Positions 33,601 through 50,024 are shown, counted from the stretch's first letter. The stretch is DNA of 64,000 nucleotides from a virus (IMGVR_UViG_3300026116_000035), one strand, 5' to 3'. Notes: a model not told the origin generated them from the letters alone. Program-made: numbers and translations.

Positions 33601-33630
33601 AAAGCCACTGAGATATCGGTGGCTTTTTTA
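33601..33630 (+). terminator. Intrinsic terminator after the HNH gene
   Basis: AAAGCCACTGA-GATA-TCGGTGGCTTT followed by Ts. Confidence 0.85.
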
Positions 33631-34479: not shown

Positions 34480-34513
34480 TATATAATAAATATATATTGA
34501 ATTGAGGTAAAGA

Positions 34514-35131
34514 ATGGGCGGAGCTGTTGGTTATGATTTATGGTTTCCAAAGACGTGCGATACAAAATTTGTTGTGCGGAATATTGCCCGTGGAAATAAA
34601 ACGGTAAGAGTTTGGAATTATCCTATATTAAATGGAAAAACTCGTGATTTAATGACTATTCCGGCTATAAGTGAAGCTGATATTAGAAATGGTTTATTAA
34701 AGGGTGAATTAGGAATTAAATTTAAAACTAGAGAATTAGTGGTAGTGGAAAGTAATATAGATTTAATTCAATTTGATCCATGTCAGAAGGAATTTTTAGA
34801 ATCTATTGGAATAACGGTTGGATTATCAGCTGGAGGTGATGGAAGTTTGCCTGTAAATTTCAAACAAAACATTTCATTAATTGGGGCTAGAGATGGAAAT
34901 AATAGAATTTTTAAAGTTCCCAGTCCTGATAAATTTATAAATGGAATATTTCAGAACAATGAATTTCGTATTTTAGTTAGACATAATGGTAAAGGTTTAG
35001 AAGAAAATATAGATTACATTGTAGCGGAGAGTGGTGGAAGTGGAACGGGTTATGACACAATAATATTAACAAATATGTCTCCACCACCTAGAAGTAGATT
35101 ATTATGTGATTATGTAGTTCAAATTGGATAA
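34514..35131 (+). CDS. Putative virion structural protein
   Basis: 205 aa, GAGG RBS. The N-terminal half resembles ORF 52965. The C-terminal half is a beta-rich domain (GARDGNNRIF...NGKGL...DY). Confidence 0.5.
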   Translation: MGGAVGYDLWFPKTCDTKFVVRNIARGNKTVRVWNYPILNGKTRDLMTIPAISEADIRNGLLKGELGIKFKTRELVVVESNIDLIQFDPCQKEFLESIGITVGLSAGGDGSLPVNFKQNISLIGARDGNNRIFKVPSPDKFINGIFQNNEFRILVRHNGKGLEENIDYIVAESGGSGTGYDTIILTNMSPPPRSRLLCDYVVQIG

Positions 35132-35134
35132 ATA

Positions 35135-36253
35135 ATGGCAGTAATAGATAATAGATTAGATCCGGCATTAGATATAGCGGGTTCATTAAATCAACAAGAA
35201 AATTTAGTAAAAAATGAAGAGCCGTTACAATATGGCTCTAGAATTCCTGGTCAAATAGGATTTACTGCATCAATAATAAATTCAGGAGTGGTAACAATTT
35301 CTGGATTAAGTGGGATGACTGATCAAAGTGTTGGAAGATTTTTGACATTATTTGGAGCGACTAATTCAAATAATAATGGAACTTTTTTAATTACATTATT
35401 TAATAGTCCAACTAGTGTAGATATAAAAAATGATAATGCTGTAAATGATTTAAATAATGGTCATATAAATTGGATAGAGAGAAAGTCATATTCATTAGAG
35501 GATGATTTAAATTATATTAGGACAGATAGAGCTGATATTAAAGGTGTTGGATATTCGGCAGATGTACCTACTTATTTTAGATGTGATGATTCTGTTACTC
35601 CTATACCGGCAAATTTAGCTAATATTGCGGGACATACTACAGATGCTAAGTCATTAGTTAATAGTAGAAAATATGAAAGAGCAATGCCTATAACTGGGCA
35701 AAGTTATATACGATTAGCAGGGACATTGGGAGAATTTCCTTATGCAAATTTGGTTAATAGATTAGGTATACCAATTCATGATGGATTTGATTCGAGTAAT
35801 GATTATGCGTGTTATTGTGATATTATAAGTCAAGATACTGGAGCTGGGTTTAATGTTTTATCTGGATCGCATAGTGGGGAAAAAATATTTGGATTTTCTA
35901 GGAAAGGAAGTACGGGGGTAGATGGAACAAGTTTTGAAGTTGAATTAAGATCGATGAAGGATGGATATTCATTTAGTCAATCTTCAATATATTTATGGGA
36001 ACCTACGCAACCTAATGTAGTTGATGTATATTTTCCTTATAGAGAATGTTTTGCAGATATGGATGAATCTGCATTAAGATTTACTGTAGTACATGGAGTA
36101 ACGGCTGGAGGTATATCAGTTAAGCCTACAGCGATTGGACAAATTTTATATTCAGTTGAAAGTGATAATTTAATATTTACAGTAGAGCAACCAATTGTTA
36201 ATGATGAAAGTTTAATAATGGTAAATGATGATGATGTTATATTGGTAATGTAG
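35135..36253 (+). CDS. Putative tail/virion structural protein
   Basis: 372 aa, beta-rich (VTISGLSGMT...GRFLT...NGTFLI), directly upstream of the fibre genes. Contains a DGY motif. Confidence 0.5.
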   Translation: MAVIDNRLDPALDIAGSLNQQENLVKNEEPLQYGSRIPGQIGFTASIINSGVVTISGLSGMTDQSVGRFLTLFGATNSNNNGTFLITLFNSPTSVDIKNDNAVNDLNNGHINWIERKSYSLEDDLNYIRTDRADIKGVGYSADVPTYFRCDDSVTPIPANLANIAGHTTDAKSLVNSRKYERAMPITGQSYIRLAGTLGEFPYANLVNRLGIPIHDGFDSSNDYACYCDIISQDTGAGFNVLSGSHSGEKIFGFSRKGSTGVDGTSFEVELRSMKDGYSFSQSSIYLWEPTQPNVVDVYFPYRECFADMDESALRFTVVHGVTAGGISVKPTAIGQILYSVESDNLIFTVEQPIVNDESLIMVNDDDVILVM

Positions 36254-36320
36254 TTTTTAATATAAATATCAATATTATAGCATTATTCTGAACTGCTAAA
36301 AATTATATCTTTGGAGCACA

Positions 36321-39300
36321 ATGGTTAGCGCTAGGCATAAAAATCAAACGATAGATCAGGGCATACATTCCATTGTAGCTTATTATTACGCTGATTCTAC
36401 AGAGCGTTTAGCGACTTCAGGATTTAGAGCTTATGATTTATATAAATTAGCTATTGATTTAAATGATAATACTTTTTGGATTATTACAAATATTGATGGT
36501 TTTGGAAATGCAACTTGGCAAAATTTAGTAGCTTCAACAGGTGGGGCAGTAGGTGGAGATTTAAGTGGAGCTTTACCAAATCCATCTGTAGTAGATCTAA
36601 CAATTTCGGGGCAGCAGCAAGGTTCTATATTATATTATAATGGAACAAATTGGGTAGTATTAAATCCTGGTACTGATGGATATGTATTAACTACTCATGA
36701 TGTTGGAAATAATCCTACCTGGACGGCTGCTAGTGGTGGAGGTGGTGGAGCAAATTTAGCAAATACGGCTCCTGTTGATGTTACTAAAGCGGCAGCATCT
36801 GTAGGCACTTCATTATTTGCGGCTAGAGCAGATCATAAACATAATATATTAACTGATGTACCTATTTCTATTGGTCCAGTTAATTCAGAAGGTGTATCGA
36901 CTGCATTAGCAAGAGCTGATCATAAACATGCAGTTACAGATTTGGCAATTCCTGGACAAACTCAGGGTGACATTATATTTTTTAATGGTACAAATTGGGT
37001 TAAGTTAGCAATTGGTTCAGATGGATATGTATTAACGGCGCATGGACCTGGAACAAATCCTGAGTGGGACAAACCTGCAACTCCTGGACCGTCTGGAATA
37101 TTTGCTGGAGCGCAATTAGCAACAACTGGAAATGTTACTTTTGCAAATTCTAATGGTATTTCTTTTGGAATGAGTAATTTTAATCAAATTACTGCTAGTT
37201 ATACAGTTCCTTCTACAGCTGGATTGATTTCAAATATAAATGTAAGTGCTGGGACTACATCAAATAATTTATCCGCATTAACATTTAGCAATTCAAACGG
37301 GTTAAGTTTTGGATTAAATGGTTCAGTTATTACAGGATCGTATACAGTTCCTACACAGACGAATTTTGTATTTTCAAATTCAAATGGATTAAGTTTTGGA
37401 ACTAATGGGTCTACAGTAACGGGTAGTTATACAGTTCCAAATGTTCCTGTACAAACTAATCAAACTGAGGGATTTTATGCAATTGGAAATACAGTAGGAC
37501 AATCTTCGAGTTCAACATTTGATGCTCGAACTTTATCTATTTCTGGTGCAGGTATTGCTTCTGTTGGATATTCAGGAAATGCATTAATAGTTTCAGTTCC
37601 TGCAGGGCTGGCTAATATTAATATAAGTGCAGGTACTACGTCAAATAATCTTTCAGCTCTTACATTTAGTAATTCAAATGGTTTAAGTTTTGGATTAAAC
37701 GGTTCTGTAGTTACCGGGTCATATACTGTACCTACGCAAAGTAATCAAACTGAAGGAATGTATGCGATAGGTAATACAGCTGGACAGAGTTCTAGTTCTA
37801 CGTTTGATGCTAGGACGATGAGTGTATCTGGAGCTGGAAATATTTCTGTAGGTTATTCTGGAAATGCTTTAGTTATTTCTGGATCACAATCAGCGCAAAC
37901 TCAAAATGTAGTTGTACCATCTGCTGGAACTCAATCTGCAACTTCTGGTACAGTAATATTTAGTAATTCCAATGGTATTAGTTTTGGGATGAGTAATTCT
38001 AGTGTTATTACTGCGAGTTATACAGTTCCTTCTACGGCTGGATTATTATCAAATGTTAATGTAAGTGCAGGAACTACTTCAAATAATTTAAGTGCTTTTG
38101 TATTTAGTAATTCTAATAATGTATCTTTCGGATTAAATGGAAGTACTATTACAGCTACAGTTACAACTCCGGCTCAAACAAATCAAAGTATAGGATTATA
38201 TGCTCTAGGTAATACTACCCAAAATAGTTCTACTACTTTAGACGCACGTAGTTTATCGTTTAATGGTTTAGGTATCATTACGGCTGGTTATTCTAATGGT
38301 TCTATTCAATTATCAGCTACGCAATCAGTTCAGACTCAAAATGTAGTTGCTCCCTCTGCTGGAACTCAGACAGCTACATCGGGAACTGTAATATTCAGTA
38401 ATTCTAACGGTATTTCTTTCGGTATGAGTAATTCTAGTGTTATTACTGCTAGTTATACGGTACCAACTCAAACTGCTCAGACTGTAGGATTATATGCATT
38501 AGGAAATACAACCCAAAATAGTTCAACTACTTTGGATGCTAGGACTTTATCTTTTAATGGATTAGGTGCTGCTACTGTAGGTTATTCAAACGGATCAATT
38601 CAGATCTCAGTTCCTACACAAACAGCTCAAACCCAGAGTAATATTCAAGCTATTTATGACGGCGCAAATTCAATAAGTACGGGAACAATTCGTTTCTCAA
38701 ATTCAAATGGTTTAAGTTTTGGAATAAATGGTCAGACTATAACTGGATCTTATACAGTTCCTTCAACGGCTGGATTAATTTCTGCAATAAATGTATCAGC
38801 AGGGACTACATCTAATAATCTTTCAGCTGTAACTTTTAGTAACTCTAATGGTTTAAGTTTTGGATTAAATGGATCGATTATAACTGGGTCATATACAGTT
38901 CCTACTCAAAGTAATCAAACAGAGGGAAGATATGCAGTAGGTAATACTACTGGGCAAAGTTCTAGTTCTACATTTGACGCTAGGACAATGAGTGTATCAG
39001 GTGCTGGAAATATTTCTGTAGGTTATTCTGGTGGTAATCTTGTAATTTCAGGAACAGCTCCGAGTGGATCACTTAATTTTTCTGCAGGTACAACATCAAA
39101 TAATTTAACTGCATTAACATTTAGTAATTCAAATGGAGTTTCTTTTGGATTAAATGGGTCAGTGGTAACAGGATCAGTTGCCGCCCAAAGCAATCAGACG
39201 GCCGGATTCTATGCAGTTGGTAATACTACAGGTCAATCTTCAAGTTCTACATTTGATGTAAGAACATTAAGCTTGTCTGGAGCTGGTATCGCATCTGTAG

Positions 39301-42300
39301 GTTATTCAGGAAATAATATTATAATTAATGTACCTGCAGCTGGAGCAAGTGTTAATTTCTCTGCCGGCACTACTTCTGGTAATTTAAATGCTGTAACTTT
39401 TTCAAATTCAAATGGTATAAGTTTTGGATTAAATAATGGTGTTATTACCGCCACTGTAACTCCTGGAGCTGCGGCGGGTATAGCGGCTATTCAAGGTGGA
39501 ACACAAACAGCAACATCTGGAACTGTAATATTTAGTAATTCAAATGGTATATCTTTTGGATTATCAAATTCTAGTATAATGACCGCTAGTTATACAGTAC
39601 CCACTCAAACTGCACAAACTGTAGGACTTTATGCCTTAGGTAATACTACTCAAAATAGTTCTACTACATTAGATGCCAGAACTTTAAGTTTTAATGGTTT
39701 AGGTGCCGCTACAGTAGGTTATTCTAATGGGTCTATTCAGATTTCTGTTCCTACACAGACCGCACAAACTCAGAGTAATATTCAGGCTATTTATGATGGT
39801 GCTAATTCAATAAGTACTGGAACAATTAGATATTCAAATTCAAATGGTGTATCTTTTGGAATTAACGGACAAACTTTAACTGCATCTGTAGCTGCTCAAA
39901 CTGCGCAGACGGTAGGATTATATGCTTTAGGTAATACTACGCAAAATTCCAGCACAACTTTAGATGCTAGAACATTATCATTTAATGGTTTAGGAGCAGC
40001 AACTGTAGGATATTCAAATGGATCAATTCAAATTTCAGTTCCTAATGCATTAACCAATGTAAATATTTCCGCTGGCACTACATCGAATAATTTAACTAAT
40101 TTTGTATTTTCAAATTCAAATAATGTATCTTTCGGATTAAACGGAAGTACTATTACAGCTACGGTAACTACTCCAGCTCAAACCGCTCAGACCATTGGAC
40201 TTTATGCTTTAGGAAATACTACTCAGAATAGCTCTACTACTTTAGATGCTCGTACTTTAAGTTTCAATGGTTTGGGTATTATCACTGCTGGTTATTCTAA
40301 TGGATCTATTCAATTATCTGCAACTCAATCTGCGCAGACTCAGAACGTAGTCGTACCTTCTGCTGGTACTCAAACAGCAACTTCTGGAACTGTAGTATTT
40401 AGCAATTCTAATGGCATTTCTTTTGGTATGAGTAATTCTAGTGTTATTACCGCTAGCTATACAGTACCAACTCAAACTGCGCAAACTATAGGTCTTTATG
40501 CAATTGGAAATACCACTCAGAATAGTTCAACTACATTAGACGCAAGAACATTAAGCTTCAATGGTTTGGGAGCTGCAACGGTTGGGTATTCTAATGGATC
40601 AATTCAGGTTTCCGTTCCCACACAAACGGCTCAAACTCAAAGCAATATTCAGGCTATTTATGATGGTGCAAATTCTATTAGTACGGGAACTATTAGATAT
40701 TCGAATGCTAATGGTGTTTCATTCGGTATTAATGGTCAAACTTTAACTGGGTCTGTAGCTGCTCAGACAAATCAAACAATTGGGCTTTATGCAATTGGAA
40801 ATACTACACAGAATTCTAGTACTACCTTAGATGCTCGTACATTATCTTTTAATGGATTAGGGGCTGCAACAGTTGGATATTCTAATGGATCGATCCAAAT
40901 TTCAGTTCCTAATGCATTAACTAATATAAATATTTCTGCTGGTACAACGAGTAATAATTTAACTAATTTTGTATTTTCAAATTCCAATAACGTATCTTTC
41001 GGATTAAATGGAAGTACTGTTACAGCTACAGTTACTACTCCAGCTCAAACAAATCAAACAATCGGGCTTTATGCAGTTGGTAATACTACTCAAAATTCCA
41101 GTACAACTTTAGATGCTAGAACTTTGTCTTTTAATGGTTTAGGTATTATTACTGCTGGATATTCTAATGGGTCAGTGCAAATTTCAGCCACTCAATCTGC
41201 ACAAACTCAAAATGTAGTTGTACCGTCTGCTGGAACTCAATCTGCAACTTCTGGTACAGTAATATTTAGTAATTCCAATGGTATTAGTTTTGGAATGAGC
41301 AATAGTTCTGTAATTACTGCTAGTTATACAGTTCCTTCTACTGCCGGTTTAATTTCAGCAATAAATGTTTCTGCAGGCACTACATCTAATAATCTTTCGG
41401 CTATTACATTTAGTAATTCAAATGGTTTAAGTTTTGGATTAAATGGGTCTGTAGTAACCGGTTCTTACACTGTCCCAACTCAAACAAATCAGACAATTGG
41501 ATTATACGCTGTTGGAAATACTACTCAAAATAGTTCAACTACTTTAGATGCGCGGACATTAAGTTTTGATGGTTTAGGTGCTGCAAGTGTAGGTTATTCA
41601 AATGGGTCAGTTCAAATTTCTGTACCAGTTCAGTCAGCTCAAAGTCAAAGTAATATTCAGGCTATTTATGACGGTGTAAATTCTATTAGTACTGGAACAA
41701 TTAGATTTTCAAATGCTAATGGAGTTTCTTTTGGGGTTAATGGTCAAACTTTAACTGGATCTGTAGCAGCTCAATCTAGAGTTCAAGTTTCACATTTAAT
41801 GTTTCCTGAAAATCCTTGGCAAACAAATTATCCAATATCAAATGCAAGTTTTTCATTACAACATTTTAATCCTAAAGTTGATATTCTGGCAACTCAAGCC
41901 AATTTATTGATGGCATTAACAGGAAATACTGATTCTACTGGAGCATTTACTGTAAGTTTAGGTATATATACAATGGCAGGTTCAGTTATGTCATTAGCTT
42001 CTTCAAATTCTAGGGTAATAACTTGGACTTCTGGATCTCAAACAACTAATTCAAGTGTTTATGGAGGTATTTCTGGAACAAGGTATAGAACTGTAGGATT
42101 AAATTGGTCAATATCTGCTGGCGATTATGTATTAGGTATGTGGTTTAGAACTACAAATAATGGAACTTGGAATGCATTTGGTGTTCAAGGTCCTACTATC
42201 GTTGGTGGATTAGATGGAAATGAAACAAATCATTACTTAAATGGATATTCTACTAGTTCCTATTCAACTGCTATGATTGGAAGCGTAAATGTTACAAATA

Positions 42301-42368
42301 CAAATTATGTTAGAACTGGTGGTAATGCATTTCAGCAACCTGGCATAATTTTCTTAGGTAGCTATTAA
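36321..42368 (+). CDS. Giant repeat fibre/adhesin-like protein 1 (2015 aa)
   Basis: N-terminal attachment-like region (ARADHKH x2, DGYVLT x2). About 1600 aa of shuffled S/T/N/G modules with no lysine between residues 251 and 1852. Distinct C-terminal beta domain. Confidence 0.75.
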   Translation: MVSARHKNQTIDQGIHSIVAYYYADSTERLATSGFRAYDLYKLAIDLNDNTFWIITNIDGFGNATWQNLVASTGGAVGGDLSGALPNPSVVDLTISGQQQGSILYYNGTNWVVLNPGTDGYVLTTHDVGNNPTWTAASGGGGGANLANTAPVDVTKAAASVGTSLFAARADHKHNILTDVPISIGPVNSEGVSTALARADHKHAVTDLAIPGQTQGDIIFFNGTNWVKLAIGSDGYVLTAHGPGTNPEWDKPATPGPSGIFAGAQLATTGNVTFANSNGISFGMSNFNQITASYTVPSTAGLISNINVSAGTTSNNLSALTFSNSNGLSFGLNGSVITGSYTVPTQTNFVFSNSNGLSFGTNGSTVTGSYTVPNVPVQTNQTEGFYAIGNTVGQSSSSTFDARTLSISGAGIASVGYSGNALIVSVPAGLANINISAGTTSNNLSALTFSNSNGLSFGLNGSVVTGSYTVPTQSNQTEGMYAIGNTAGQSSSSTFDARTMSVSGAGNISVGYSGNALVISGSQSAQTQNVVVPSAGTQSATSGTVIFSNSNGISFGMSNSSVITASYTVPSTAGLLSNVNVSAGTTSNNLSAFVFSNSNNVSFGLNGSTITATVTTPAQTNQSIGLYALGNTTQNSSTTLDARSLSFNGLGIITAGYSNGSIQLSATQSVQTQNVVAPSAGTQTATSGTVIFSNSNGISFGMSNSSVITASYTVPTQTAQTVGLYALGNTTQNSSTTLDARTLSFNGLGAATVGYSNGSIQISVPTQTAQTQSNIQAIYDGANSISTGTIRFSNSNGLSFGINGQTITGSYTVPSTAGLISAINVSAGTTSNNLSAVTFSNSNGLSFGLNGSIITGSYTVPTQSNQTEGRYAVGNTTGQSSSSTFDARTMSVSGAGNISVGYSGGNLVISGTAPSGSLNFSAGTTSNNLTALTFSNSNGVSFGLNGSVVTGSVAAQSNQTAGFYAVGNTTGQSSSSTFDVRTLSLSGAGIASVGYSGNNIIINVPAAGASVNFSAGTTSGNLNAVTFSNSNGISFGLNNGVITATVTPGAAAGIAAIQGGTQTATSGTVIFSNSNGISFGLSNSSIMTASYTVPTQTAQTVGLYALGNTTQNSSTTLDARTLSFNGLGAATVGYSNGSIQISVPTQTAQTQSNIQAIYDGANSISTGTIRYSNSNGVSFGINGQTLTASVAAQTAQTVGLYALGNTTQNSSTTLDARTLSFNGLGAATVGYSNGSIQISVPNALTNVNISAGTTSNNLTNFVFSNSNNVSFGLNGSTITATVTTPAQTAQTIGLYALGNTTQNSSTTLDARTLSFNGLGIITAGYSNGSIQLSATQSAQTQNVVVPSAGTQTATSGTVVFSNSNGISFGMSNSSVITASYTVPTQTAQTIGLYAIGNTTQNSSTTLDARTLSFNGLGAATVGYSNGSIQVSVPTQTAQTQSNIQAIYDGANSISTGTIRYSNANGVSFGINGQTLTGSVAAQTNQTIGLYAIGNTTQNSSTTLDARTLSFNGLGAATVGYSNGSIQISVPNALTNINISAGTTSNNLTNFVFSNSNNVSFGLNGSTVTATVTTPAQTNQTIGLYAVGNTTQNSSTTLDARTLSFNGLGIITAGYSNGSVQISATQSAQTQNVVVPSAGTQSATSGTVIFSNSNGISFGMSNSSVITASYTVPSTAGLISAINVSAGTTSNNLSAITFSNSNGLSFGLNGSVVTGSYTVPTQTNQTIGLYAVGNTTQNSSTTLDARTLSFDGLGAASVGYSNGSVQISVPVQSAQSQSNIQAIYDGVNSISTGTIRFSNANGVSFGVNGQTLTGSVAAQSRVQVSHLMFPENPWQTNYPISNASFSLQHFNPKVDILATQANLLMALTGNTDSTGAFTVSLGIYTMAGSVMSLASSNSRVITWTSGSQTTNSSVYGGISGTRYRTVGLNWSISAGDYVLGMWFRTTNNGTWNAFGVQGPTIVGGLDGNETNHYLNGYSTSSYSTAMIGSVNVTNTNYVRTGGNAFQQPGIIFLGSY

Positions 42369-45300
42369 CTAATATTATGATATTTAAAGGGAATATATAA
42401 ATGGCTGAAAATTTTCAAGATAATATAAGTTATGGCGGATCAACCTTAGCGGTGAGCGGAGATGCTGTTGCTATAGGATCAACAAATGCCGGAGCAAAAA
42501 GTGTTATTTTTAATAATACTGGGTCACAAGGGCATTTAGCGTGGCAACCTACAGCTAATCGAACAATTAATTTACCTGATTCTGGTGGTACTCTCCAATT
42601 AACTGGTCAAGCGCCTGGTGCTCTTGCGGCTGGTACCCAAACTGCTACTTCAGGAACTATAGTATTTAGTAATTCTAATGGTCTTACTTTTGGTATGAGT
42701 AATTCCAGTGTAGTCACGGCAAGTTATACAGTTCCTTCTACAGCTGGTTTAATCTCTAATATTAACGTTTCCGCCGGTACTACTTCCAATAATCTTTCTG
42801 CTCTTACATTTAGTAATTCGAATGGTCTAAGTTTTGGATTAAATGGTTCTACTATCACTGGATCATACACAGTTCCAAACGTTCCTGCCCAAACTAATCA
42901 AACTGTAGGATTATATGCTCTAGGTAATACTACACAAAACAGCTCTACTACTTTAGATGCTAGAACTTTGTCATTTAATGGTTTGGGAGCAGCAACTGTA
43001 GGATATTCTAATGGATCGATTCAGGTTTCAGTCCCTGTACAATCAGCACAAACACAAAATGTAATTCAAGCAATATCAGGTGGTACTAGTAGTCAAAGCT
43101 CAGGTACTATTGTTTTTGGAAATTCTAACGGTATTACTTTCGGATTATCAAATGGAACAATTACTGCAACAGTAAACCCTGGAGCTGCAGCAGGTTTAGC
43201 AGCAGCACAAGCCGGTACTCAAACTGCTACTTCTGGTACGTTAGTATTTAGTAACTCAAACGGTATTTCTTTCGGTATGAGCAATTCTAGCGTTGTTACA
43301 GCTAGCTATACTGTACCTTCTACCGCTGGATTAATTTCAAATATTAATGTTAGTGCAGGTACTACTTCTAATAATCTTTCAGCTGTAACTTTTAGTAACT
43401 CTAATGGTTTAGCTTTCGGATTAAATGGATCGGTTGTAACTGGTTCATATACAGTTCCTACCCAAACTGCTCAGACTATTGGTTTATATGCTTTAGGTAA
43501 TACTACACAAAACTCTAGTACAACTTTAGACGCAAGAACATTAAGTTTTAACGGATTAGGTATTATTACAGCTGGATATTCTAACGGCTCTATTCAATTA
43601 TCAGCTACCCAATCTGCTCAAACACAAAATGTAGTTGTTCCTTCTGCCGGAACTCAAACTGCTACATCAGGCACTGTAGTATTCAGTAATTCTAACGGTA
43701 TTTCTTTCGGTATGAGTAATTCTAGCGTTGTTACAGCTAGCTATACAGTTCCAACACAAACAAATCAAAGTGTAGGCCTTTATGCATTAGGAAATACTAC
43801 ACAGAATAGCTCAACTACTTTAGATGCGCGAAGTTTATCTTTTAATGGTTTAGGTATTATTACGGCTGGTTATTCTAACGGATCAATTCAAATTTCAGCC
43901 ACTCAATCAGCTTATCAATTTAGTAACTCAAATAACGTAAGTTTTGGTACAAATGGTTCAACTGTTACTGCTACTGCTACTTTTGCTCAAACTAACCAAA
44001 CTGTAGGATTATATGCTTTAGGTAATACTACTCAAAATTCTAGTACTACATTAGACGCTAGAACATTATCTTTTAACGGATTAGGTGCTGCTACAGTCGG
44101 TTACTCTAATGGATCAATTCAGATTTCAGTACCTACTCAAACTGCTCAAACTCAGAGTAATATTCAAGCAATTTATGATGGAGCAAATTCTATTAGTACC
44201 GGAACAATTCGTTTTTCAAATTCTAATGGAGTTTCTTTCGGAGTTAATGGTCAAACATTAACAGCATCAGTAGCAGCTCAAACAAATCAATCAATCGGCG
44301 TTTATGCTGTAAGTAATACTACACAAAGTAGTTCAGGTACCTTAGATGCTCGTTCTTTATCTTTTCAAGGGGCAGGTATAGCTTCTGTTGGTTATACAAA
44401 TGGATCGGTTGTTATTTCTGTACCTTCAGGTGGTGCAGGTTCAGTTAATATTTCGGCCGGTACTACTTCAAATAATTTAACTAACTTTGTGTTTTCAAAT
44501 TCCAATAACGTATCTTTCGGATTAAATGGATCTACTGTTACCGCTACTGTAACTACTCCTGCACAAACAGCTCAAACTGTCGGTCTTTATGCTTTGGGCA
44601 ATACTACTCAAAATAGTTCAACTACTTTGGATGCTCGCACTCTAAGTTTTAATGGGTTGGGTGCAGCTACTGTAGGATATTCTAATGGATCAATTCAAAT
44701 TTCTGTACCAGTTCAATCAGCACAGACTCAAAGCAATATTCAGGCTATTTATGATGGTGCTAATTCAATAAGTACTGGCACAATACAATTTGCCAATGCT
44801 AATGGTGTTTCATTTAGTATTAACGGTCAAACAATAAGTGGTTCAGTTGCAGCTCAAACAAATCAAACTATAGGAATTTATGCTACTTCGAATACTACTG
44901 GAGCTTCAAGTTCTAGTACTTATGATGCAAGAAGTATAACATTTCAAGGGGCAGGTATAGCTTCAGTTGGTCATTCAAATGGGTCTGTAATTATCAGCGT
45001 TCCTTCAGGTGGTGGAGCTGGTGATGGCGTTAATATATTAGCAGCTGGTACTCAAACCGCTAATACAACCGGAACTGTATTATTTAGCAATTCAAATGGT
45101 ATTTCTTTTGGTATGAGTAATAGTTCCATAATTACAGCAAGTTATACAGTTCCTACTCAGACTGCTCAAACTATTGGACTTTATGCCTTAGGTAATACTA
45201 CACAAAATAGTTCTACTACTTTAGATGCACGAACTTTATCTTTTAACGGTTTAGGTATCATTACTGCTGGATATTCTAATGGTTCAATTCAGTTATCTGC

Positions 45301-46000
45301 TACTCAATCTGCTCAGACACAAAATGTAGTTGTCCCTTCAGCTGGTACACAAACAGCTACTTCTGGAACTGCAATATTTAGCAATTCTAATGGTGTTTCT
45401 TTCGGTATGAGTAATAGTTCTGTTATTACTGCATCATTTAATGGAACTTTAAATTCAGTTGTGTTTTCTAATGCTAATAATATTACTTTCGGGTCTGCTG
45501 GTAATACTACAATTACCGCGTCTTATTTAGGTGTTAATTATTCAGCAGGTACAACCAGTAATAATTTAGGCTCTATAGTATTCAGTAACTCAAATGGAGT
45601 ATCTTTTGGATTAAATGGATCAACTATAACAGCTTCAGCTTCATTACAAACTGAGGGGCTTTATGCACTCGGAAATACTGTTGGTCAAAGTTCTTCAACA
45701 ACTATTGACCCGCGATCTCAATCAATCTCAGGTATAGGAAATATTTCAGTAGGTTATTCGGCTGGAGCGATTATTATATCAGGATCAGGTGGTGGAGGTG
45801 GTGTAGCCTTATCTGCCGGCACAAATAGTACATCGACTGGAACTGTAGTATTTAGTAATTCAAACGGTATTAGCTTTGGTATGAATACCGATGGTGTTGT
45901 TACCGCCTCTGTACCAGCAATAGCAGGATCAGATGTTGTATTTTCAAATTCAAATAATATAATTTTTGGAAATAATGTCAGCACGATCACAGCAAGCGCA
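37130..46000 (+). repeat. Intragenic modular repeat array shared by both fibre genes
   Basis: Recurrent modules FSNSNGxSFG, SAGTTSNNL, GLYAxGNTTQNSSTTLDAR (15 copies: 9 + 6), VGYSNGSIQISVP, QSNIQAIYDGANSISTGTI and PSAGTQxATSGT. Protein-identical copies differ at synonymous sites. Confidence 0.95.
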
Positions 46001-46762
46001 GTGCCTTATAATATATCCCAATTAGATCCTTTTGGTTATTTGCCAGTTGTTAGCAATTCAGGTTTAGGACAAAATTCATTATATTTCGTTCCATTTGATG
46101 TTCCTGAATATTTGAGTGCTAATCGTATTAATGTTTTCGTTTCAGTGGCAACAACATTCGTTACAACAGCCAATAGCTCTGGTACAGGTGGTTATACTCA
46201 AAGTGCAGCAATTTATGTAAGAGATTCTGGAACAAATAGTACTCGAATAACTTCTCAATGGTCAGGAAGTTGGTTTATGAGTTATTCAGCCAGCAGCGGC
46301 ACGCAAATAAAAATAACATATCCTAATGGTATTTCGAATTCAACAGCGGTATCTACAAATAGTACCGGATTAACAACATCAAACGCTTCAACATTTCCAT
46401 TAAATAGCATTGGTGGATATAGAGCTATTGCTATGCCGATTAGTTCAATTATGACTCCTGGGCGTTATTGGTTAGCTATAGCTAATTCAAGTACTAGTAA
46501 TAATGCCGTCGCAATTTTAAATTGTAGCGTTATGCAAGTTACATATAGTAATAATATAGCTTTTAGACCATTTGGAACATCTTCGGCAGCTAGCAATGCT
46601 TCATTTTATGGAATAAGAGATGGATTAGGTACATATAGCGTTACATCTAACGCTTTCCCTGGAACTGTTATTATGAACTCTGATTCAATTCGAGCAGCAG
46701 TTACAGGTATTATTCCATATTTTAATTTCTCTGGGTATACAACTGCAACTAATATGATTTAA
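42401..46762 (+). CDS. Giant repeat fibre/adhesin-like protein 2 (1453 aa), paralogue of fibre 1
   Basis: Built from the same repeat modules as fibre 1. Only two lysines (residues 33 and 1304). Different N-terminus and a divergent C-terminal beta domain. Confidence 0.75.
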   Translation: MAENFQDNISYGGSTLAVSGDAVAIGSTNAGAKSVIFNNTGSQGHLAWQPTANRTINLPDSGGTLQLTGQAPGALAAGTQTATSGTIVFSNSNGLTFGMSNSSVVTASYTVPSTAGLISNINVSAGTTSNNLSALTFSNSNGLSFGLNGSTITGSYTVPNVPAQTNQTVGLYALGNTTQNSSTTLDARTLSFNGLGAATVGYSNGSIQVSVPVQSAQTQNVIQAISGGTSSQSSGTIVFGNSNGITFGLSNGTITATVNPGAAAGLAAAQAGTQTATSGTLVFSNSNGISFGMSNSSVVTASYTVPSTAGLISNINVSAGTTSNNLSAVTFSNSNGLAFGLNGSVVTGSYTVPTQTAQTIGLYALGNTTQNSSTTLDARTLSFNGLGIITAGYSNGSIQLSATQSAQTQNVVVPSAGTQTATSGTVVFSNSNGISFGMSNSSVVTASYTVPTQTNQSVGLYALGNTTQNSSTTLDARSLSFNGLGIITAGYSNGSIQISATQSAYQFSNSNNVSFGTNGSTVTATATFAQTNQTVGLYALGNTTQNSSTTLDARTLSFNGLGAATVGYSNGSIQISVPTQTAQTQSNIQAIYDGANSISTGTIRFSNSNGVSFGVNGQTLTASVAAQTNQSIGVYAVSNTTQSSSGTLDARSLSFQGAGIASVGYTNGSVVISVPSGGAGSVNISAGTTSNNLTNFVFSNSNNVSFGLNGSTVTATVTTPAQTAQTVGLYALGNTTQNSSTTLDARTLSFNGLGAATVGYSNGSIQISVPVQSAQTQSNIQAIYDGANSISTGTIQFANANGVSFSINGQTISGSVAAQTNQTIGIYATSNTTGASSSSTYDARSITFQGAGIASVGHSNGSVIISVPSGGGAGDGVNILAAGTQTANTTGTVLFSNSNGISFGMSNSSIITASYTVPTQTAQTIGLYALGNTTQNSSTTLDARTLSFNGLGIITAGYSNGSIQLSATQSAQTQNVVVPSAGTQTATSGTAIFSNSNGVSFGMSNSSVITASFNGTLNSVVFSNANNITFGSAGNTTITASYLGVNYSAGTTSNNLGSIVFSNSNGVSFGLNGSTITASASLQTEGLYALGNTVGQSSSTTIDPRSQSISGIGNISVGYSAGAIIISGSGGGGGVALSAGTNSTSTGTVVFSNSNGISFGMNTDGVVTASVPAIAGSDVVFSNSNNIIFGNNVSTITASAVPYNISQLDPFGYLPVVSNSGLGQNSLYFVPFDVPEYLSANRINVFVSVATTFVTTANSSGTGGYTQSAAIYVRDSGTNSTRITSQWSGSWFMSYSASSGTQIKITYPNGISNSTAVSTNSTGLTTSNASTFPLNSIGGYRAIAMPISSIMTPGRYWLAIANSSTSNNAVAILNCSVMQVTYSNNIAFRPFGTSSAASNASFYGIRDGLGTYSVTSNAFPGTVIMNSDSIRAAVTGIIPYFNFSGYTTATNMI

Positions 46763-46805
46763 TAAATGAATAATATTAATATTTAATTATATATGGAGTT
46801 ATAGT

Positions 46806-47480
46806 TTGGCAATTTCAATCGTACAAGTATTACCACTAAGTGAAAGTAACGGGCCCTCTGGAGCTACATTTCATGCAGCAAGTCTAGGTGGCGTTAATTT
46901 TACTGCCGGTAATACTGTATTTTATTGTCATTCATACTGGTTTCAAGCTCCTACTAGTTTATCTATAGCTGGCTCTGCTGCAACACTTGATTTAGCTCGA
47001 CAAACTACTTCTGGTGATCTTCTTCAAATTTGGAGATTATCAAATGTTGGTAGCGGTCGTGATGACGTTGTACTTTCCGGTGATGCTGGTGGTTATAATT
47101 GTGGGGCCATTTTAGAAGTATCCGGCCTTGATTCAAATCCACTAGATCAAATTTCAGGCCCATCTTCCGGAACTGATAATCAACCAACAGCATCAACAAG
47201 TACTACTACTGTCGCGGATGAATTAATAATTGCTTTATTTGCTAATGGTAGCGATGGAGGTGGTTCTTCTCCTCCAACTGGTTATTCATTATTATATCCG
47301 TCAGCACAAGAAGGTGGTTCAGGTGCCTATAAAATTGTTTCAGCAACTGGAACGCAAAGTGTAACATTTACTACTCCAGGAAATATCGTTTGGGTTTGCG
47401 GTATAGCTACGTATAAAGCCGCAGATACTGGAGTAAGTGGAGTTACAATTCCAACATATAGCTCTTACATTACCGTATAA
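46806..47480 (+). CDS. Putative fibre-associated beta-sandwich protein
   Basis: 224 aa, TTG start with GGAG RBS. Low charge and S/T/G-rich like the fibres, with alternating beta pattern. Confidence 0.5.
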   Translation: MAISIVQVLPLSESNGPSGATFHAASLGGVNFTAGNTVFYCHSYWFQAPTSLSIAGSAATLDLARQTTSGDLLQIWRLSNVGSGRDDVVLSGDAGGYNCGAILEVSGLDSNPLDQISGPSSGTDNQPTASTSTTTVADELIIALFANGSDGGGSSPPTGYSLLYPSAQEGGSGAYKIVSATGTQSVTFTTPGNIVWVCGIATYKAADTGVSGVTIPTYSSYITV

Positions 47481-47646: not shown

Positions 47647-48387
47647 ATGGGAAATAAGCCTGAAATTATAATGATGGATACAGCTGGTGCGCATAATAAT
47701 GATCTTGAAGGTAGTAGGGCAAGATTAATGCGTGGAGGTTCTTGGAAACGACAAAATATAGTTGTGGTACTTCCGGCCTCAAATACAATTTCAACAAGAG
47801 TTATGTTATCACATTGGAATTTAGCTTTTCCTCCGAATAACGGTGTTGTGAAAATAATAACTCAAAATATGGAAGTTGGCGACGCTTATTCATCAACCAT
47901 CGAGATGGTTTTAGCTGATCCTAATTTATCTAAGTTTCAATTTTTCTTGTTCATAGAACACGATAACATTCCGCCTTCTGATGCTGTTTTAAAATTGCTT
48001 GAAAGAATGGAAGAGCATCCAGAATATGCAGCAATTTCGGGCGGATACTGGACAAAAGGGCCCAACGGAGTATTTCAGGCGTGGGGCGACGTTAAGGACC
48101 CAGTATTAAATTTTCGCCCTCAATTACCTGATCCTAACGGTGGTCTTATTGAATGTTGTGGAATTGGTATGGGGTTCGCTATATTTAGATTAGATATGTT
48201 TAAAGATGTAAGACTTCGTAAGCCGTGGTTTCATACTCAAACTGTCGGCGGGGTTAGCACTCAAGATTTATATTTTTGGTCTGATGCTCGTAAGGCAGGA
48301 TATCGCTGTGCTGTAGATTGCAGCATAAAAGTGGGTCATTTTGACGCGGACGGATCGATCGGAGGGATCCCGGAATTTACTTGGTAA
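47647..48387 (+). CDS. Glycosyltransferase, GT-A fold (GT2-like)
   Basis: VVVLP start strand, FLFIEHDN at the DxD-equivalent position, AISGGY, GIGMGFAIF, KPWF, and QDLYF...ARKAGY...VD...VGH. Confidence 0.8.
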   Translation: MGNKPEIIMMDTAGAHNNDLEGSRARLMRGGSWKRQNIVVVLPASNTISTRVMLSHWNLAFPPNNGVVKIITQNMEVGDAYSSTIEMVLADPNLSKFQFFLFIEHDNIPPSDAVLKLLERMEEHPEYAAISGGYWTKGPNGVFQAWGDVKDPVLNFRPQLPDPNGGLIECCGIGMGFAIFRLDMFKDVRLRKPWFHTQTVGGVSTQDLYFWSDARKAGYRCAVDCSIKVGHFDADGSIGGIPEFTW

Positions 48388-48389
48388 TG

Positions 48390-48425: not shown

Positions 48426-48435
48426 AAAGATAATA

Positions 48436-49386
48436 ATGAAGAAAAAAAATGAAGATGAACTTAATAATTTAAATTGTGATATTTGGAAAATATATTTAAT
48501 TTATCGTATTGATGATAATGGTGAAATATGTAATAAAGTTTATATTGGTCAAACATGCCGAAGTATAAATAAAAGATTTCAATGTCACATAACTGATAAA
48601 AAAGGAGGATGCATTAAATTATTTAATGCATTTAATAAATATGGGCGTGAAAATTTTAGAATTATAACATTAGCTGAAACAAAATGTCATGATTGTGCTA
48701 ATTATTTAGAAGCAACATTAATAAATCAATATGATAGTATTAATAATGGTTATAATATAAGAAATGGTGGCAGTAACGGTAAATTATCTGAAGAGACTAA
48801 GAAAAAAATATCTCAAAGTAGAATTGGTAAATATACCGGTGAAAATAGTTCTTTTTATGGACGCCATCATACTGAAGAAAATAGAAAAAAAATATCTGAA
48901 TTAACAAAAGCTAGAGTTCAAGGTGAAGATAATCCTTTTTTCGGTAAGAAACATACTGAAGAAACTAAAAAAATATTAGTTGAGATGACAAAAGCTAGAG
49001 TTCAGGGTGAGGATAATCCTATGTTTGGTAAAACTCATTCACCAGAAACTATTAAAAAAATTTCACAAAGTAGAATTGGCAAAACCGCTGGAAAGAATAA
49101 TCCAATGTACGGTAAAAGACATCCACCAGAATTATTAAAACAAATAGCTGAATCACATAAAGGTCAAGTTGCCTGGAATAAAGGTATACCCAATTCAGAA
49201 GCAGCTAGAGAAAAAATGAAATTAGCCTGGGTAAAACGAAGAGCTCAAAAAGAATTGGCTAAACAGATGAAAAATTTCTACGGCTCAACAATTGGGGCAA
49301 AACTCGATTTAACTGAATCAGAGATTGATAATTTAGAAATTAAAGAATTTAAATATAGTTTTCAAAATAATAAGGAAGATAAATGA
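48436..49386 (+). CDS. GIY-YIG homing endonuclease with NUMOD3 repeats
   Basis: KIYLIY...KVYIGQT, then R, LFNAFNKYG, E and NGYN. Repeated GE.NPF(F/Y)GK.HTEET.K.IS units. Confidence 0.9.
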   Translation: MKKKNEDELNNLNCDIWKIYLIYRIDDNGEICNKVYIGQTCRSINKRFQCHITDKKGGCIKLFNAFNKYGRENFRIITLAETKCHDCANYLEATLINQYDSINNGYNIRNGGSNGKLSEETKKKISQSRIGKYTGENSSFYGRHHTEENRKKISELTKARVQGEDNPFFGKKHTEETKKILVEMTKARVQGEDNPMFGKTHSPETIKKISQSRIGKTAGKNNPMYGKRHPPELLKQIAESHKGQVAWNKGIPNSEAAREKMKLAWVKRRAQKELAKQMKNFYGSTIGAKLDLTESEIDNLEIKEFKYSFQNNKEDK

Positions 49387-50024
49387 CGGAAGTAACAAAG
49401 ACAGAAGAAGTAAAACCGCTACGATTGGATTTCGGATGTGGCCCAAATAAACTCAAAGAAGCTGGTAAAGAATTTATTGGCGTTGATGCAATAGCTTTTC
49501 CAGGAGTAGATGTTGTATTAGATCTCACTGAAAAAGAATCATCAGTTCAGAATAAAGATTTTTCAGTTACACATAAATATAAGAAATGGATTTGGGAAGA
49601 TAATTCAGTAGATGAGATTCATTGTTCACATTTTCTTGAGCATTTAAATATGGAAGAGCGATGTCACTTTATGAATGAGACATATCGTATTTTAAAGCCT
49701 GGAGCACAATGTAGAATTATTGTACCGCATTGGGCTAGTGCAAGAGCTTATGGTGATGTTACTCATGATCCCATGCCAGTTTCAGAATTCTTTTTTTATT
49801 ATTTATCAAAGCCGTGGAGAGAAGCAAATGCACCTCATACGGTAGCTTCTGAAAGAAATCCCAATTTATTTCATGACGAAGTGGATTTTGCTGCAACATG
49901 GGGATATTCTTTACATCAATCATTACTTGTACGAAATCAAGAATATCAGACATTTGCGTTAGGTTTTTTTAAGGAAGCTGCACAAGATATAATTGCAACG
50001 CTAACTAAAAATGTAAAACAGTAA
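49383..50024 (+). CDS. Class I SAM-dependent methyltransferase
   Basis: Motif I LRLDFGCGP, IGVD, DNSVDEIHCSHFLEHL, RILKPGA...IIVP. This type is often seen beside glycosyltransferases. Confidence 0.88.
   Translation: MTEVTKTEEVKPLRLDFGCGPNKLKEAGKEFIGVDAIAFPGVDVVLDLTEKESSVQNKDFSVTHKYKKWIWEDNSVDEIHCSHFLEHLNMEERCHFMNETYRILKPGAQCRIIVPHWASARAYGDVTHDPMPVSEFFFYYLSKPWREANAPHTVASERNPNLFHDEVDFAATWGYSLHQSLLVRNQEYQTFALGFFKEAAQDIIATLTKNVKQ

What the first reader, a model, noticed from the sequence alone, without database searches (positions are those of the whole stretch)
36321..46762. Two giant, essentially lysine-free fibres assembled from the same shuffled modules but with different tips
Seen directly: fibre 1 has no Lys over 1600 residues and fibre 2 has two Lys in 1453, in a genome whose other proteins are Lys-rich. 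About six S/T/N/G modules recur in changing order in both genes, and the N-termini and C-terminal beta domains differ. Inference: a long, uncharged, trypsin-resistant beta-solenoid stalk whose length and order can be recombined, carrying alternative receptor or matrix-binding heads. This suits a protease-rich, slime-coated host. I do not recognise the repeat as a named family.
Basis: partly seen in the sequence, partly recalled or inferred. Interest (0 to 1): 0.7.

Follow-up and report, generated by a model that had tools for sequence, protein, structure and literature searches.

The report
Lysine-free trimeric megaphage fibre pair
A giant soil phage encodes two neighbouring, almost lysine-free fibre proteins, predicted to be three-chain shafts built from shuffled 45-54-residue units with sugar-binding-like heads; the kind of protein is familiar, but the repeat family is undescribed and its composition is extreme.

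Summary
Fibre 1 (36321-42368, 2015 aa) has no Lys over residues 252-1851, and fibre 2 (42401-46762, 1453 aa) has two Lys; other ORFs average 8.5% Lys. Both shafts are tiled by 33 and 25 units of two core types (5-8 subtypes) in different orders.

The interpretation needs correcting in four places.
- The shaft is predicted to be an intertwined homotrimer, not a single-chain solenoid.
- Arg is kept in every B and most A3 units, so "trypsin-resistant" fails.
- The two tips are homologous (hhalign 98%) lectin/CBM-like beta-sandwiches. Their nearest folds are mycobacteriophage tail-tip/central-fibre domains and cyanophage A4 gp25.
- The repeat copies are saturated at synonymous sites, with no recent exchange. 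Shuffling, 4-fold length change and anchor/tip swapping appear only between related phages.

Lys and Glu depletion is a trait of a whole unnamed metagenomic family (more than 370 long members). That family is linked to a glycosyltransferase-like gene and a SAM methyltransferase.

This scan had already met the same family on other DNA (e1-3409062, e1-5344146, e1-3973726). Virion location (tail or head) and the reason for Lys avoidance remain open.

The parts
36321..42368 (+). Fibre 1 gene (2015 aa, P0001): anchor 1, two GDLSG/ARADHKH modules, 33 shaft units, tip 1
   Evidence: ORF and translation. GGAG lies 6-7 nt before the ATG. The start is supported by homologues that align from residue 1.
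36321..36536 (+). Anchor 1 (aa 1-72), probable virion-attachment domain
   Evidence: Shared at 40-65% identity with the N-termini of P0310, P0158, P0010, P0007-9, P0013, P0298 and others, which carry different shafts and tips.
36537..37070 (+). Two copies of a separate fibre repeat (GDLSG...QGxIxYYNGxNWVxL...AARADHKH); holds most of fibre 1's lysines
   Evidence: 50-60% identical to a module repeated five or more times in P0291. Relatives sometimes carry DUF5907 or DUF2793.
37071..41774 (+). Fibre 1 shaft: 33 units (A1 A2 A4 B2 A2 B2 A1 A2' B1' A1 B1 A3 A2 B2 A2 B2 A2 A1 B1 A3 B1 A2' B1' A1 B1 A3 B1 A2' B1' A1 A2 B1 A3), no Lys
   Evidence: Motif segmentation and HMM tiling; composition.
39468..41195 (+). 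Two tandem copies of a six-unit super-repeat (A1 B1 A3 B1 A2' B1', about 289 aa)
   Evidence: 90.6% aa identity but 80.7% nt identity and 58% third-position identity. 867-nt spacing in the repeat families.
41775..42365 (+). Tip 1 (aa 1819-2015): lectin/CBM-like beta-sandwich head
   Evidence: AF2 model with pLDDT 86.7, pTM 0.83. VIA Z 13.2 to Bxb1 tail tip 9d93_Pa and Z 11.9 to A4 gp25. Foldseek also finds Douge central fibre gp20. 205 representative homologues, with the domain at or near the C-terminus in nearly all listed.
42401..46762 (+). Fibre 2 gene (1453 aa, P0002): anchor 2, 25 shaft units, tip 2
   Evidence: ORF and translation. AGGGA lies upstream of the ATG. Orthologue P0020 matches both ends.
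42401..42595 (+). Anchor 2 (aa 1-65), unrelated to anchor 1
   Evidence: Found on P0020 (tip 2 type) and on many proteins with tip 1-type heads, e.g. P0150 at 94% identity.
42596..46009 (+). Fibre 2 shaft: 25 units (A1 A2 B1 A3 A1 A2 B1' A1 B1' A4 B1 A3 B2 A2' B1 A3 B2 A1 B1' A1 A4 A2 B2 A1 A4), no Lys
46010..46759 (+). Tip 2 (aa 1204-1453): diverged homologue of tip 1
   Evidence: hhalign probability 98.2% against the tip 1 profile. AF2 model pLDDT 67, core 75-88. VIA Z 12.2 to 9d93_Pa and Z 11.8 to 9jwb_Z. 20 homologues.
35135..36253 (+). P0004 (372 aa), a fibre-associated domain that in a relative forms the N-terminus of a fibre
   Evidence: 55% identical to residues 5-325 of P0006, which continues into the same units and tip 1. 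A 506-aa version sits upstream of the fibres in L008.
47647..48387 (+). GT-like protein (246 aa), conserved partner of the fibre family
   Evidence: phrog_12406 glycosyltransferase E 1.4e-7; weak Glycos_transf_2, below Pfam's cut-off. Homologues at 69%, 63% and 40% identity lie next to fibre-family genes in L001, L006 and L004.
49383..50024 (+). Class I SAM methyltransferase (213 aa), second conserved partner
   Evidence: Methyltransf_11 E 8.7e-7, above the cut-off. Homologues at 59%, 44% and 34% identity lie next to the GT homologue in L001, L006 and L004.
46806..47480 (+). P0003 (224 aa, TTG start, 0.9% Lys), unknown role; membership uncertain
   Evidence: Composition. Only weak C-terminal similarity to proteins downstream of fibres in L001 and L004. 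Not a tip relative.
33601..33626 (+). Intrinsic-terminator-like hairpin that may mark the upstream end of the transcription unit 33670-47480
   Evidence: 11-bp stem with a T tract. No comparable + strand site until after 47480.

Best explanation
The two genes encode paralogous homotrimeric virion fibres of a phage-G-related soil or rhizosphere megaphage. Each chain has three independently assorting parts. The first is a short N-terminal anchor (two unrelated kinds, so probably two attachment sites). The second is a long shaft in which three chains are wound together, built from 33 or 25 S/T/N/G-rich units of about 45-54 residues. The third is a C-terminal lectin/CBM-like beta-sandwich head that most likely binds a host-surface glycan. 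The two heads are diverged homologues and so probably recognise different ligands. The near absence of Lys and Glu is a trait of the whole protein family, kept by purifying selection. The shaft surface is made of small polar residues. The only charges are one conserved Asp and one Arg per B unit and in most A3 units. Even the globular heads use Arg rather than Lys. A glycosyltransferase-like gene and a SAM methyltransferase travel with the family, so the sequon-rich surface is probably modified after translation. Shown: composition, unit architecture, family membership, homology of the heads, synteny, gene linkage. Predicted by models: trimer, head fold. Inferred: virion location, glycan binding, modification, reason for Lys avoidance.
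For: Phage context: portal, prohead protease, and an MCP 55% identical to phage G gp27 upstream. The order MCP, fibre 1 orthologue, fibre 2 orthologue is conserved on 399-kb and 448-kb contigs and in L008. Trimer: ipSAE 0.84 against 0.00 for the best of 3 controls. The runs agree in at least 86% of contacts and the partner's pLDDT is at least 77. In the tool's calibration the mark was reached by 20 of 30 proteins solved as pairs of one chain and 1 of 23 solved as single chains; those counts hold only roughly here, because my own alignment and three copies were used. Shaft residues 2-98 of the piece are almost all at the interface, with same-residue contacts such as 49-49 and 47-47. Heads. A4 gp25 is a trimeric CBM protein (PMC12002296), and Douge central-fibre domains with carbohydrate-binding-like folds bind M. 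smegmatis (PMC13033339). Family-wide depletion: 120 long homologues have 0-1.6% Lys, nearly all at or below 1%. Shafts average K 0.18%, R 1.07%, D 1.34%, E 0.39%. 111 of 120 heads have R > K and 44 have no Lys. Selection: 25% of codons are one step from Lys. Between-strain differences fall at third codon positions in 31 of 40 listed sites. GT and MTase linkage is seen in four independent contexts. Sequons number 4.2-4.6 per 100 aa against 0.71 elsewhere, about 1.5 times the shuffled expectation, z about 4.3. Neither N-terminus looks like a signal peptide when read by eye.
Against: There is no direct evidence that either protein is in the virion: no proteome, no isolate, and Bacillus phage G has no detectable homologue. 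The gene position, next to the capsid gene here but near tailspike-like genes in L006 and L004, does not settle tail versus head. The trimer and the head folds are predictions, and trimeric fibres are common in solved structures, so the pass may partly reflect likeness. The GT assignment is weak (Pfam E 0.008, below the cut-off), no modification has been shown, and sequon enrichment is modest once composition is accounted for. Family members also occur in assemblies labelled Saccharimonadales, so not every member need be virion-borne.
Confidence: 0.7

Rival explanations
1. They are head fibres: trimers anchored on the capsid, for example at threefold axes or vertices, that project from the head and mediate reversible adhesion, rather than tail fibres that trigger infection.
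For: The pair sits directly after the major capsid gene, inside a portal-protease-MCP block, here and in the 399-kb and 448-kb relatives. One of the two best structural neighbours of both heads is cyanophage A4 gp25, a trimeric CBM protein seated on capsid threefold axes (PMC12002296). No recognisable tail gene lies within the window downstream.
Against: The other top neighbours are tail-tip and central-fibre proteins (Bxb1 9d93_Pa, Douge gp20). In the smaller phage contigs the family gene lies near tailspike-like genes. Gene order in jumbo phages is scattered, and mobile endonuclease genes separate the MCP from the fibres. The anchors match no solved capsid-binding domain.
Confidence: 0.2
2. 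Lysine avoidance is an adaptation against lysine-directed attack: host ubiquitin-like conjugation that targets tail fibres (Bil-type defence), Lys-specific proteases, or chemical modification in soil. It is not a by-product of the fold.
For: Arg supplies nearly all positive charge, even in the globular heads (tip 1: K 1, R 6; tip 2: K 1, R 8; 111 of 120 family heads have R > K). This holds although this AT-rich phage otherwise prefers Lys (8.5% against 3.2%). A quarter of codons are one step from Lys. A bacterial Ubl system conjugates its Ubl to a phage central tail fibre (abstract of 10.1101/2023.09.04.556158). That Ubl conjugation targets lysines is general knowledge (abstract of 10.1101/2023.09.26.559546).
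Against: Glu is depleted as strongly as Lys, and Asp is preferred over Glu. That fits a general exclusion of long, flexible charged side chains from an all-beta fibre. T4 fibres show the same direction of bias (R > K, D > E) in milder form. The N-terminal 250 residues of fibre 1 keep seven Lys. The Bil preprint does not mention lysine. No such defence is known for the unknown host.
Confidence: 0.1
3. They are not virion parts. They are fibres displayed on or released from the infected cell, or in other genomes cellular adhesins, for example for aggregation or matrix binding.
For: Family members occur in assemblies labelled Saccharimonadales, and an earlier follow-up (e1-3973726) read one as a chromosomal adhesion fibre. 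No virion evidence exists.
Against: By eye there is no signal peptide, membrane helix or cell-wall anchor in either protein, and Pfam finds none. The genes lie in a block of virion genes. The contexts examined, including the Saccharimonadales-labelled contigs, look like phage regions. The nearest structural neighbours of the heads are virion proteins.
Confidence: 0.06
4. Each chain folds on its own into a right-handed beta-solenoid, with one rung or a few rungs per unit.
For: Strong lag-2 hydrophobic alternation and a regular 47-50-residue period. The monomer model shows short regular strands in the two units before tip 2.
Against: As a monomer those units reach only pLDDT 54-65. As a trimer the partner's pLDDT is 78-80, with about 600 inter-chain contacts covering nearly all shaft residues. 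No similarity to pectate-lyase-type solenoids was found by Pfam, by PDB sequence search or by fold search.
Confidence: 0.08

Closest known systems
Unnamed metagenomic fibre family with a linked glycosyltransferase-like gene and SAM methyltransferase
   Same: The same A and B unit cores, the same Lys/Glu depletion, the same type of C-terminal head, and the same two neighbouring enzyme genes.
   Different: Here there are two paralogues side by side in a phage-G-like megaphage, they are among the longest shafts, and the GT and MTase genes are separated by a GIY-YIG homing endonuclease gene.
T4 long tail fibre proteins gp34/gp37 (trimeric, repeat-built shafts with triple beta-helix segments; PMC5537660)
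   Same: Long homotrimeric shaft built from repeated units, a distal binding domain, and the same direction of compositional bias (R > K, D > E).
   Different: No sequence similarity. T4 fibres have 3.8-5% Lys and ordinary charge. The unit here is a different family of about 48 residues, and no chaperone gene such as gp38 or gp57A was recognised.
Tail-tip or central-fibre proteins of mycobacteriophages Bxb1 (9d93_Pa) and Douge (gp20, 8zdp)
   Same: Best structural match of both heads (Z 13.2 and 12.2, 162-171 residues aligned). In Douge these domains have carbohydrate-binding-like folds and bind the host surface (PMC13033339).
   Different: 8-11% sequence identity. The matching domain is internal in the 610-residue Bxb1 chain (residues 209-407) but terminal here. 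The shafts are unrelated.
Cyanophage A4 gp25 auxiliary cement protein (9jwb_Z; PMC12002296)
   Same: A trimeric CBM-fold domain with Z 11.8-11.9 to both heads and Foldseek E 3e-5 to tip 1.
   Different: gp25 is a 201-residue capsid-bound protein with a short N-terminal anchor and no shaft.
Phage-encoded virion glycosylation in mycobacteriophages (recalled from my own knowledge; cited by title in PMC11256854 and others found)
   Same: Phage-encoded glycosyltransferases next to genes for Ser/Thr-rich virion surface proteins.
   Different: There the targets are capsid and tail-tube C-terminal tails. Here the candidate target is a giant fibre, a methyltransferase is always present, and no modification has been shown.

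Membership tests
Unnamed fibre / GT-like / MTase cassette family (metagenomic) | Shaft of S/T/N/G-rich units of about 45-54 aa with FSNSNGxSFG-type and LDARTLSF-type cores | tested here: met
   33 and 25 units in the two genes. Unit HMMs tile homologues P0005-P0036 and others.
Unnamed fibre / GT-like / MTase cassette family (metagenomic) | Family-wide depletion of Lys and Glu | tested here: met
   120 long homologues have 0-1.6% Lys, nearly all at or below 1%. Shaft means are K 0.18% and E 0.39%.
Unnamed fibre / GT-like / MTase cassette family (metagenomic) | Adjacent GT-like protein of about 245 aa and a class I SAM methyltransferase | tested here: met
   Homologues of 47647-48387 and 49383-50024 lie next to family genes in L001, L006 and L004.
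Trimeric phage receptor-binding fibre (functional class) | Homotrimer with an intertwined shaft | tested here: met
   Model only: ipSAE 0.84 against best control 0.00, at least 86% contact agreement, partner pLDDT at least 77. Calibration: 20 of 30 homo-oligomers and 1 of 23 single chains reached the mark; this holds only roughly here.
Trimeric phage receptor-binding fibre (functional class) | Distal binding head | tested here: met
   Both C-terminal domains model as lectin/CBM-like beta-sandwiches whose nearest neighbours are virion proteins. Binding itself was not tested.
Trimeric phage receptor-binding fibre (functional class) | Presence in the virion, attached through the N-terminus | not testable with these tools
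   No isolate or proteome exists. The anchors have no solved relative.
Triple beta-helix shaft (as in T4 gp5C, gp12, gp34 segments) | Three chains forming one three-sided helix, with neighbouring chains staggered by a third of a turn | tested here: inconclusive
   Inter-chain contacts show a register offset of about 15 residues, roughly a third of a unit. The sequence shows no clear one-third-unit periodicity, and no coordinates were available.
Single-chain right-handed beta-solenoid (pectate-lyase-like) | Each chain forms its own solenoid core | tested here: inconclusive
   The monomer model of the shaft units reaches only pLDDT 54-65, while the trimer model buries nearly all shaft residues between chains. 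No Pfam or fold match to such solenoids was listed.
Lectin/CBM-like jelly-roll head shared with Bxb1 9d93_Pa, Douge gp20 and A4 gp25 | Fold similarity over the whole domain, standing above background | tested here: met
   Tip 1: Z 13.2 (171 aligned, rmsd 3.1) and Z 11.9; the next hit is 9.2. Tip 2: Z 12.2 and Z 11.8; the next hit is 8.5.
Lectin/CBM-like jelly-roll head shared with Bxb1 9d93_Pa, Douge gp20 and A4 gp25 | Detectable sequence homology or conserved sugar-binding residues | tested here: not met
   No PDB sequence hit at E <= 1, and 8-16% identity in the structural alignments. Binding residues were not examined.
Trimeric autotransporter adhesin (a JGI name on homologue P0080) | Signal peptide and C-terminal YadA-type beta-barrel anchor | tested here: not met
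   Pfam finds no YadA anchor, stalk or head domain in either protein. The N-termini are not signal-like by eye, and the C-terminus is a beta-sandwich head.
Collagen-like / BclA-type fibres | G-X-Y triplet repeats | tested here: not met
   No G-X-Y tracts in either translation, and no Collagen Pfam hit.
Peptidase_S74 intramolecular-chaperone fibres | C-terminal self-cleaving S74 chaperone domain | tested here: not met
   No Pfam hit on either C-terminal domain, even at E <= 5.
DUF5907 / DUF2793 fibre repeats (N-terminal modules) | Pfam match above the gathering score | tested here: inconclusive
   P0001:1-262 has only a sub-threshold DUF7435 hit. Some proteins sharing its N-terminal region carry DUF5907 or DUF2793.

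The most novel reading that the evidence does not exclude
The whole exposed fibre, shaft and head alike, has been purged of lysine as a shield against lysine-directed attack. One candidate attack is a host ubiquitin-like conjugation defence of the Bil type, which is known to tag phage tail fibres. The remaining surface would be masked by phage-made, methylated glycans. This would make the family a widespread structural counter-defence rather than a mere compositional oddity.
Probability: 0.1. Interest if true: 0.85.

Novelty: new variant of a known kind. Interest (0 to 1): 0.5.

Why it matters
Receptor-binding fibres decide which bacteria a phage can infect, and for soil megaphages almost nothing is known about them. 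This locus gives a clean, dissectable example of a very large fibre family that has no annotation. It has separable anchors, a shaft of countable units and swappable lectin-like heads. It also shows three unusual features together: near-total exclusion of Lys and Glu under selection, protein-identical repeats whose codons are fully scrambled, and obligate linkage to a glycosyltransferase-like gene and a methyltransferase. Naming and modelling the family would annotate hundreds of giant 'hypothetical' genes in metagenomes. It would also give a testable system for phage-encoded fibre modification and for why lysine is avoided.

Tried and rejected
- Tandem Repeats Finder found no array. The repeats are too diverged as DNA.
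- tblastn of fibre 1 against 50,697 phage records found nothing, and the N-terminal 262 aa gave one weak hit. The low-complexity filter may contribute.
- Pfam, PHROGs and NCBIfam gave no named family for either fibre, P0003 or P0004.
- PDB sequence searches of the N-terminus, the shaft with tip 1, and tip 2 gave nothing usable.
- The search of the phage G record gave no match, but the tool warns that an empty answer shows nothing.
- No whole genome is held for the window.
- BLASTP of tip 1 against tip 2 was not significant. Only the profile comparison showed homology.
- P0003 as a stand-alone head was rejected (hhalign probability 5%).
- No other anchor or tip copy exists in the window.
- The hydrophobic autocorrelation shows no clear one-third-unit period.
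- Length polymorphism could not be tested. All runs are kept as contigs, which break inside the repeats. One 120-nt joint (36698 to 36819) has only 29 letters on its shorter side.
- No RNA holder is listed. Run X5 is only guessed to be RNA.
- The Bil preprint does not mention lysine, and the tail-methylation paper (PMC13445384) does not name the methylated residues in its main text.
- 'Trypsin-resistant' was rejected because Arg is retained.
- 'Recently recombining cassettes' was rejected because of synonymous saturation.

Full report
**What is there.** The window is all + strand, about 31% G+C, and is phage DNA. It has a portal gene (8012-9751), a prohead-protease fusion (16997-20596) and a major capsid protein (31211-32221) that is 55% identical to Bacillus phage G gp27. 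After the capsid gene come an HNH endonuclease gene, a strong terminator-like hairpin (33601-33626), three small ORFs and then the two flagged genes. These are fibre 1 (36321-42368, 2015 aa, P0001) and fibre 2 (42401-46762, 1453 aa, P0002). Both have Shine-Dalgarno-like sequences, and no convincing terminator lies between them.

**The composition claim is correct.**
- Fibre 1 has 8 Lys, seven in the first 251 residues and one at 1852. Residues 252-1851 are therefore a 1600-residue Lys-free run.
- Fibre 2 has Lys only at 33 and 1304.
- The other ORFs average 8.5% Lys.
- The chance of such a run is 10^-61 at the background frequency and 10^-7 even at 1% Lys.
- The absence is not mutational. A quarter of all codons in both genes, including 209 Asn codons in fibre 1, are one substitution from Lys.
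- T4 gp34-gp37 have 3.8-5.0% Lys and Lys-free runs of at most 139 residues.
Glu is depleted as strongly as Lys (0.4% and 0.2% against 7.2%), whereas Arg and Asp fall only two- to four-fold.
- Each B unit and most A3 units carry one Asp and one Arg, and A2 and A2' units carry no charge at all.
- Because Arg recurs every 50-100 residues, 'trypsin-resistant' does not follow.

**The repeat architecture is as described.** Two core motifs, A (FSNSNGxSFG) and B (LDARTLSF), mark 33 units in fibre 1 and 25 in fibre 2, spaced 27-55 residues apart. They cluster into A1, A2/A2', A3, a short A4, B1/B1' and B2. All types occur in both genes, in different orders. Fibre 1 also contains two tandem copies of a six-unit super-repeat at 39468-41195.

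**The copies are old.** B1 units are about 94% identical as protein, yet at identical residues only about 50% use the same codon. The expectation from random synonymous choice is 0.49. Within-gene and between-gene pairs are equally diverged. The two super-repeat copies are 90.6% identical as protein, 80.7% as DNA and 58% at third positions. Tandem Repeats Finder reports nothing. The longest exact repeat is 68 nt. The best fibre 1-fibre 2 DNA match is 85% over 155 nt.

Contigs from another soil study carry a strain about 10% diverged that is collinear over 1.9 kb of shaft without gaps. Of the 40 differences listed, 31 fall at third codon positions. The protein sequence of the units is therefore under strong purifying selection, and the present arrangement is stable rather than actively recombining.

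**Shuffling is real between related phages.**
- Orthologues that share fibre 1's anchor and tip have 19-44 units in different orders.
- A close relative (L008) keeps the synteny. Its fibre 1 orthologue has only 8 units (826 aa). A second fibre there has an anchor 94% identical to fibre 2's anchor but a tip 1-type head and 6 units. A third has anchor 2 and at least 14 units.
- Anchor 2 occurs on many proteins with tip 1-type heads, and anchor 1 occurs with other heads.
- The upstream ORF P0004 (35135-36253) is 55% identical to the N-terminal 325 residues of P0006, which continues into the same units and tip 1.
- Residues 74-250 of fibre 1 are a separate fibre repeat (GDLSG...AARADHKH) that occurs five or more times in P0291.
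- Anchors, shaft and heads therefore assort independently.

**The tips.** BLASTP sees no similarity between them. Profiles built from 50 tip 1 and 21 tip 2 homologues align over 189 columns with 98.2% probability and E 3e-14. Tip 1 folds confidently (pLDDT 86.7, pTM 0.83) and tip 2 moderately (pLDDT 67, core 75-88).

Both models have the same two best structural neighbours, standing clear of the rest. The first is the Bxb1 tail-tip chain 9d93_Pa (Z 13.2 and 12.2). The second is cyanophage A4 gp25 (Z 11.9 and 11.8). Lectin-like and CBM domains follow at Z 6-9. Foldseek adds Douge central fibre gp20. A4 gp25 is a trimeric CBM protein on capsid threefold axes (PMC12002296). Douge central-fibre domains with carbohydrate-binding-like folds bind M. 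smegmatis (PMC13033339). The two 'different tips' are thus diverged members of one lectin-like head family.

**The shaft.** Three copies of residues 1720-2015 of fibre 1 (two units plus tip 1, 26-row alignment) scored ipSAE 0.84 against 0.00 for the best of three controls. The runs agree in at least 86% of contacts, and the partner's pLDDT is at least 77. In the tool's calibration the mark was reached by 20 of 30 proteins solved as pairs of one chain and 1 of 23 solved as single chains. Those counts hold only roughly here, and likeness to solved trimeric fibres may contribute.

Nearly every shaft residue lies at the interface. There are same-residue contacts that would lie on the axis, and an inter-chain register offset of about 15 residues, a third of a unit. 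As a monomer the shaft units reach only pLDDT 54-65. I read this as an intertwined three-chain shaft, possibly a triple beta-helix. The sequence shows no clear one-third-unit period, so the exact geometry is open.

**The family.** A search of 5.8 billion proteins found at least 372 long relatives, almost none named and none with a relevant Pfam domain. The 120 examined have 0-1.6% Lys, nearly all at or below 1%, and several have none. Their heads use Arg over Lys in 111 of 120 cases. The contexts examined look like phage regions, including two contigs labelled Saccharimonadales.

The GT-like protein (47647-48387) and the SAM methyltransferase (49383-50024) have homologues next to family genes in three other contexts. 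Here a GIY-YIG homing endonuclease gene sits between them. N-x-S/T sequons are six times denser than in other ORFs and about 1.5 times the composition-matched expectation. Earlier follow-ups of this scan described the same cassette, the trimer and the lectin-like head on other DNA. I used them as leads and checked the points above myself.

**Reading.** The best explanation is a pair of paralogous trimeric virion fibres with two kinds of anchor and two diverged glycan-binding heads, members of an undescribed shaft-repeat family that is probably modified by its linked enzymes. Tail versus head attachment is open. The position next to the capsid gene and the gp25 likeness favour the head. The tail-tip likeness and the contexts in smaller phages favour the tail.

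Lys avoidance is partly a general exclusion of long charged side chains (Glu goes too) and partly specific to Lys (Arg replaces it even in the globular heads). A counter-defence role, for example against Ubl conjugation to tail fibres (10.1101/2023.09.04.556158), is possible but unsupported.

Noticed in passing
47647-50024: The GT-like gene and the SAM methyltransferase gene, adjacent in three other contexts, are separated here by a GIY-YIG homing endonuclease gene (48436-49386) whose end overlaps the methyltransferase start. This looks like a mobile insertion into the conserved cassette.
   Followed up: partly
35135-36253: P0004 stands alone here. In P0006 the same domain is fused to the shaft units and tip 1, and in L008 it is a 506-aa protein. 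It may be an alternative anchor or an adaptor of the fibre system.
   Followed up: partly
46806-47480: P0003 (224 aa, TTG start) is also nearly Lys-free (0.9%) and rich in S/T/G/A, with no family match. Only its C-terminus weakly resembles proteins downstream of fibres in L001 and L004.
   Followed up: partly
30406-31107: A 233-aa Lys-poor ORF just upstream of the capsid gene has a 50%-identical homologue in a similar position upstream of the capsid gene in the 399-kb relative. Phage G's decoration protein gp26 occupies that position, so this may be a capsid decoration protein.
   Followed up: no
32390-33577 and 33601-33626: An HNH endonuclease gene lies between the capsid gene and the fibre cluster, followed by the only strong terminator-like hairpin in the region.
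   Followed up: no
50028-51107: A NifS/IscS-like cysteine desulfurase (Aminotran_5 E 7e-28), an auxiliary metabolic gene directly after the methyltransferase.
   Followed up: no
53342-54355: A 337-aa protein with a C-terminal PA14 domain (E 3e-9), another possible carbohydrate-binding virion or accessory protein.
   Followed up: no
58520-61402: A 960-aa ORF combining ribonucleotide-reductase-like stretches with an HNH-like segment, possibly a gene invaded by an intein or endonuclease.
   Followed up: no
36698-36819: In the probable source run one contig skips 120 nt inside the first GDLSG module. Contigs of two runs have loose ends at 36698 that encode variant '...NP.W T' sequences. This hints at strain variation in the N-terminal module, but support is weak (29 letters on the shorter side).
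   Followed up: no
36361-45749: A run guessed to be metagenomic RNA-Seq holds six short contigs (151-192 nt) that are 99-100% identical to the fibre genes. These could be transcripts or carried-over DNA.
   Followed up: no
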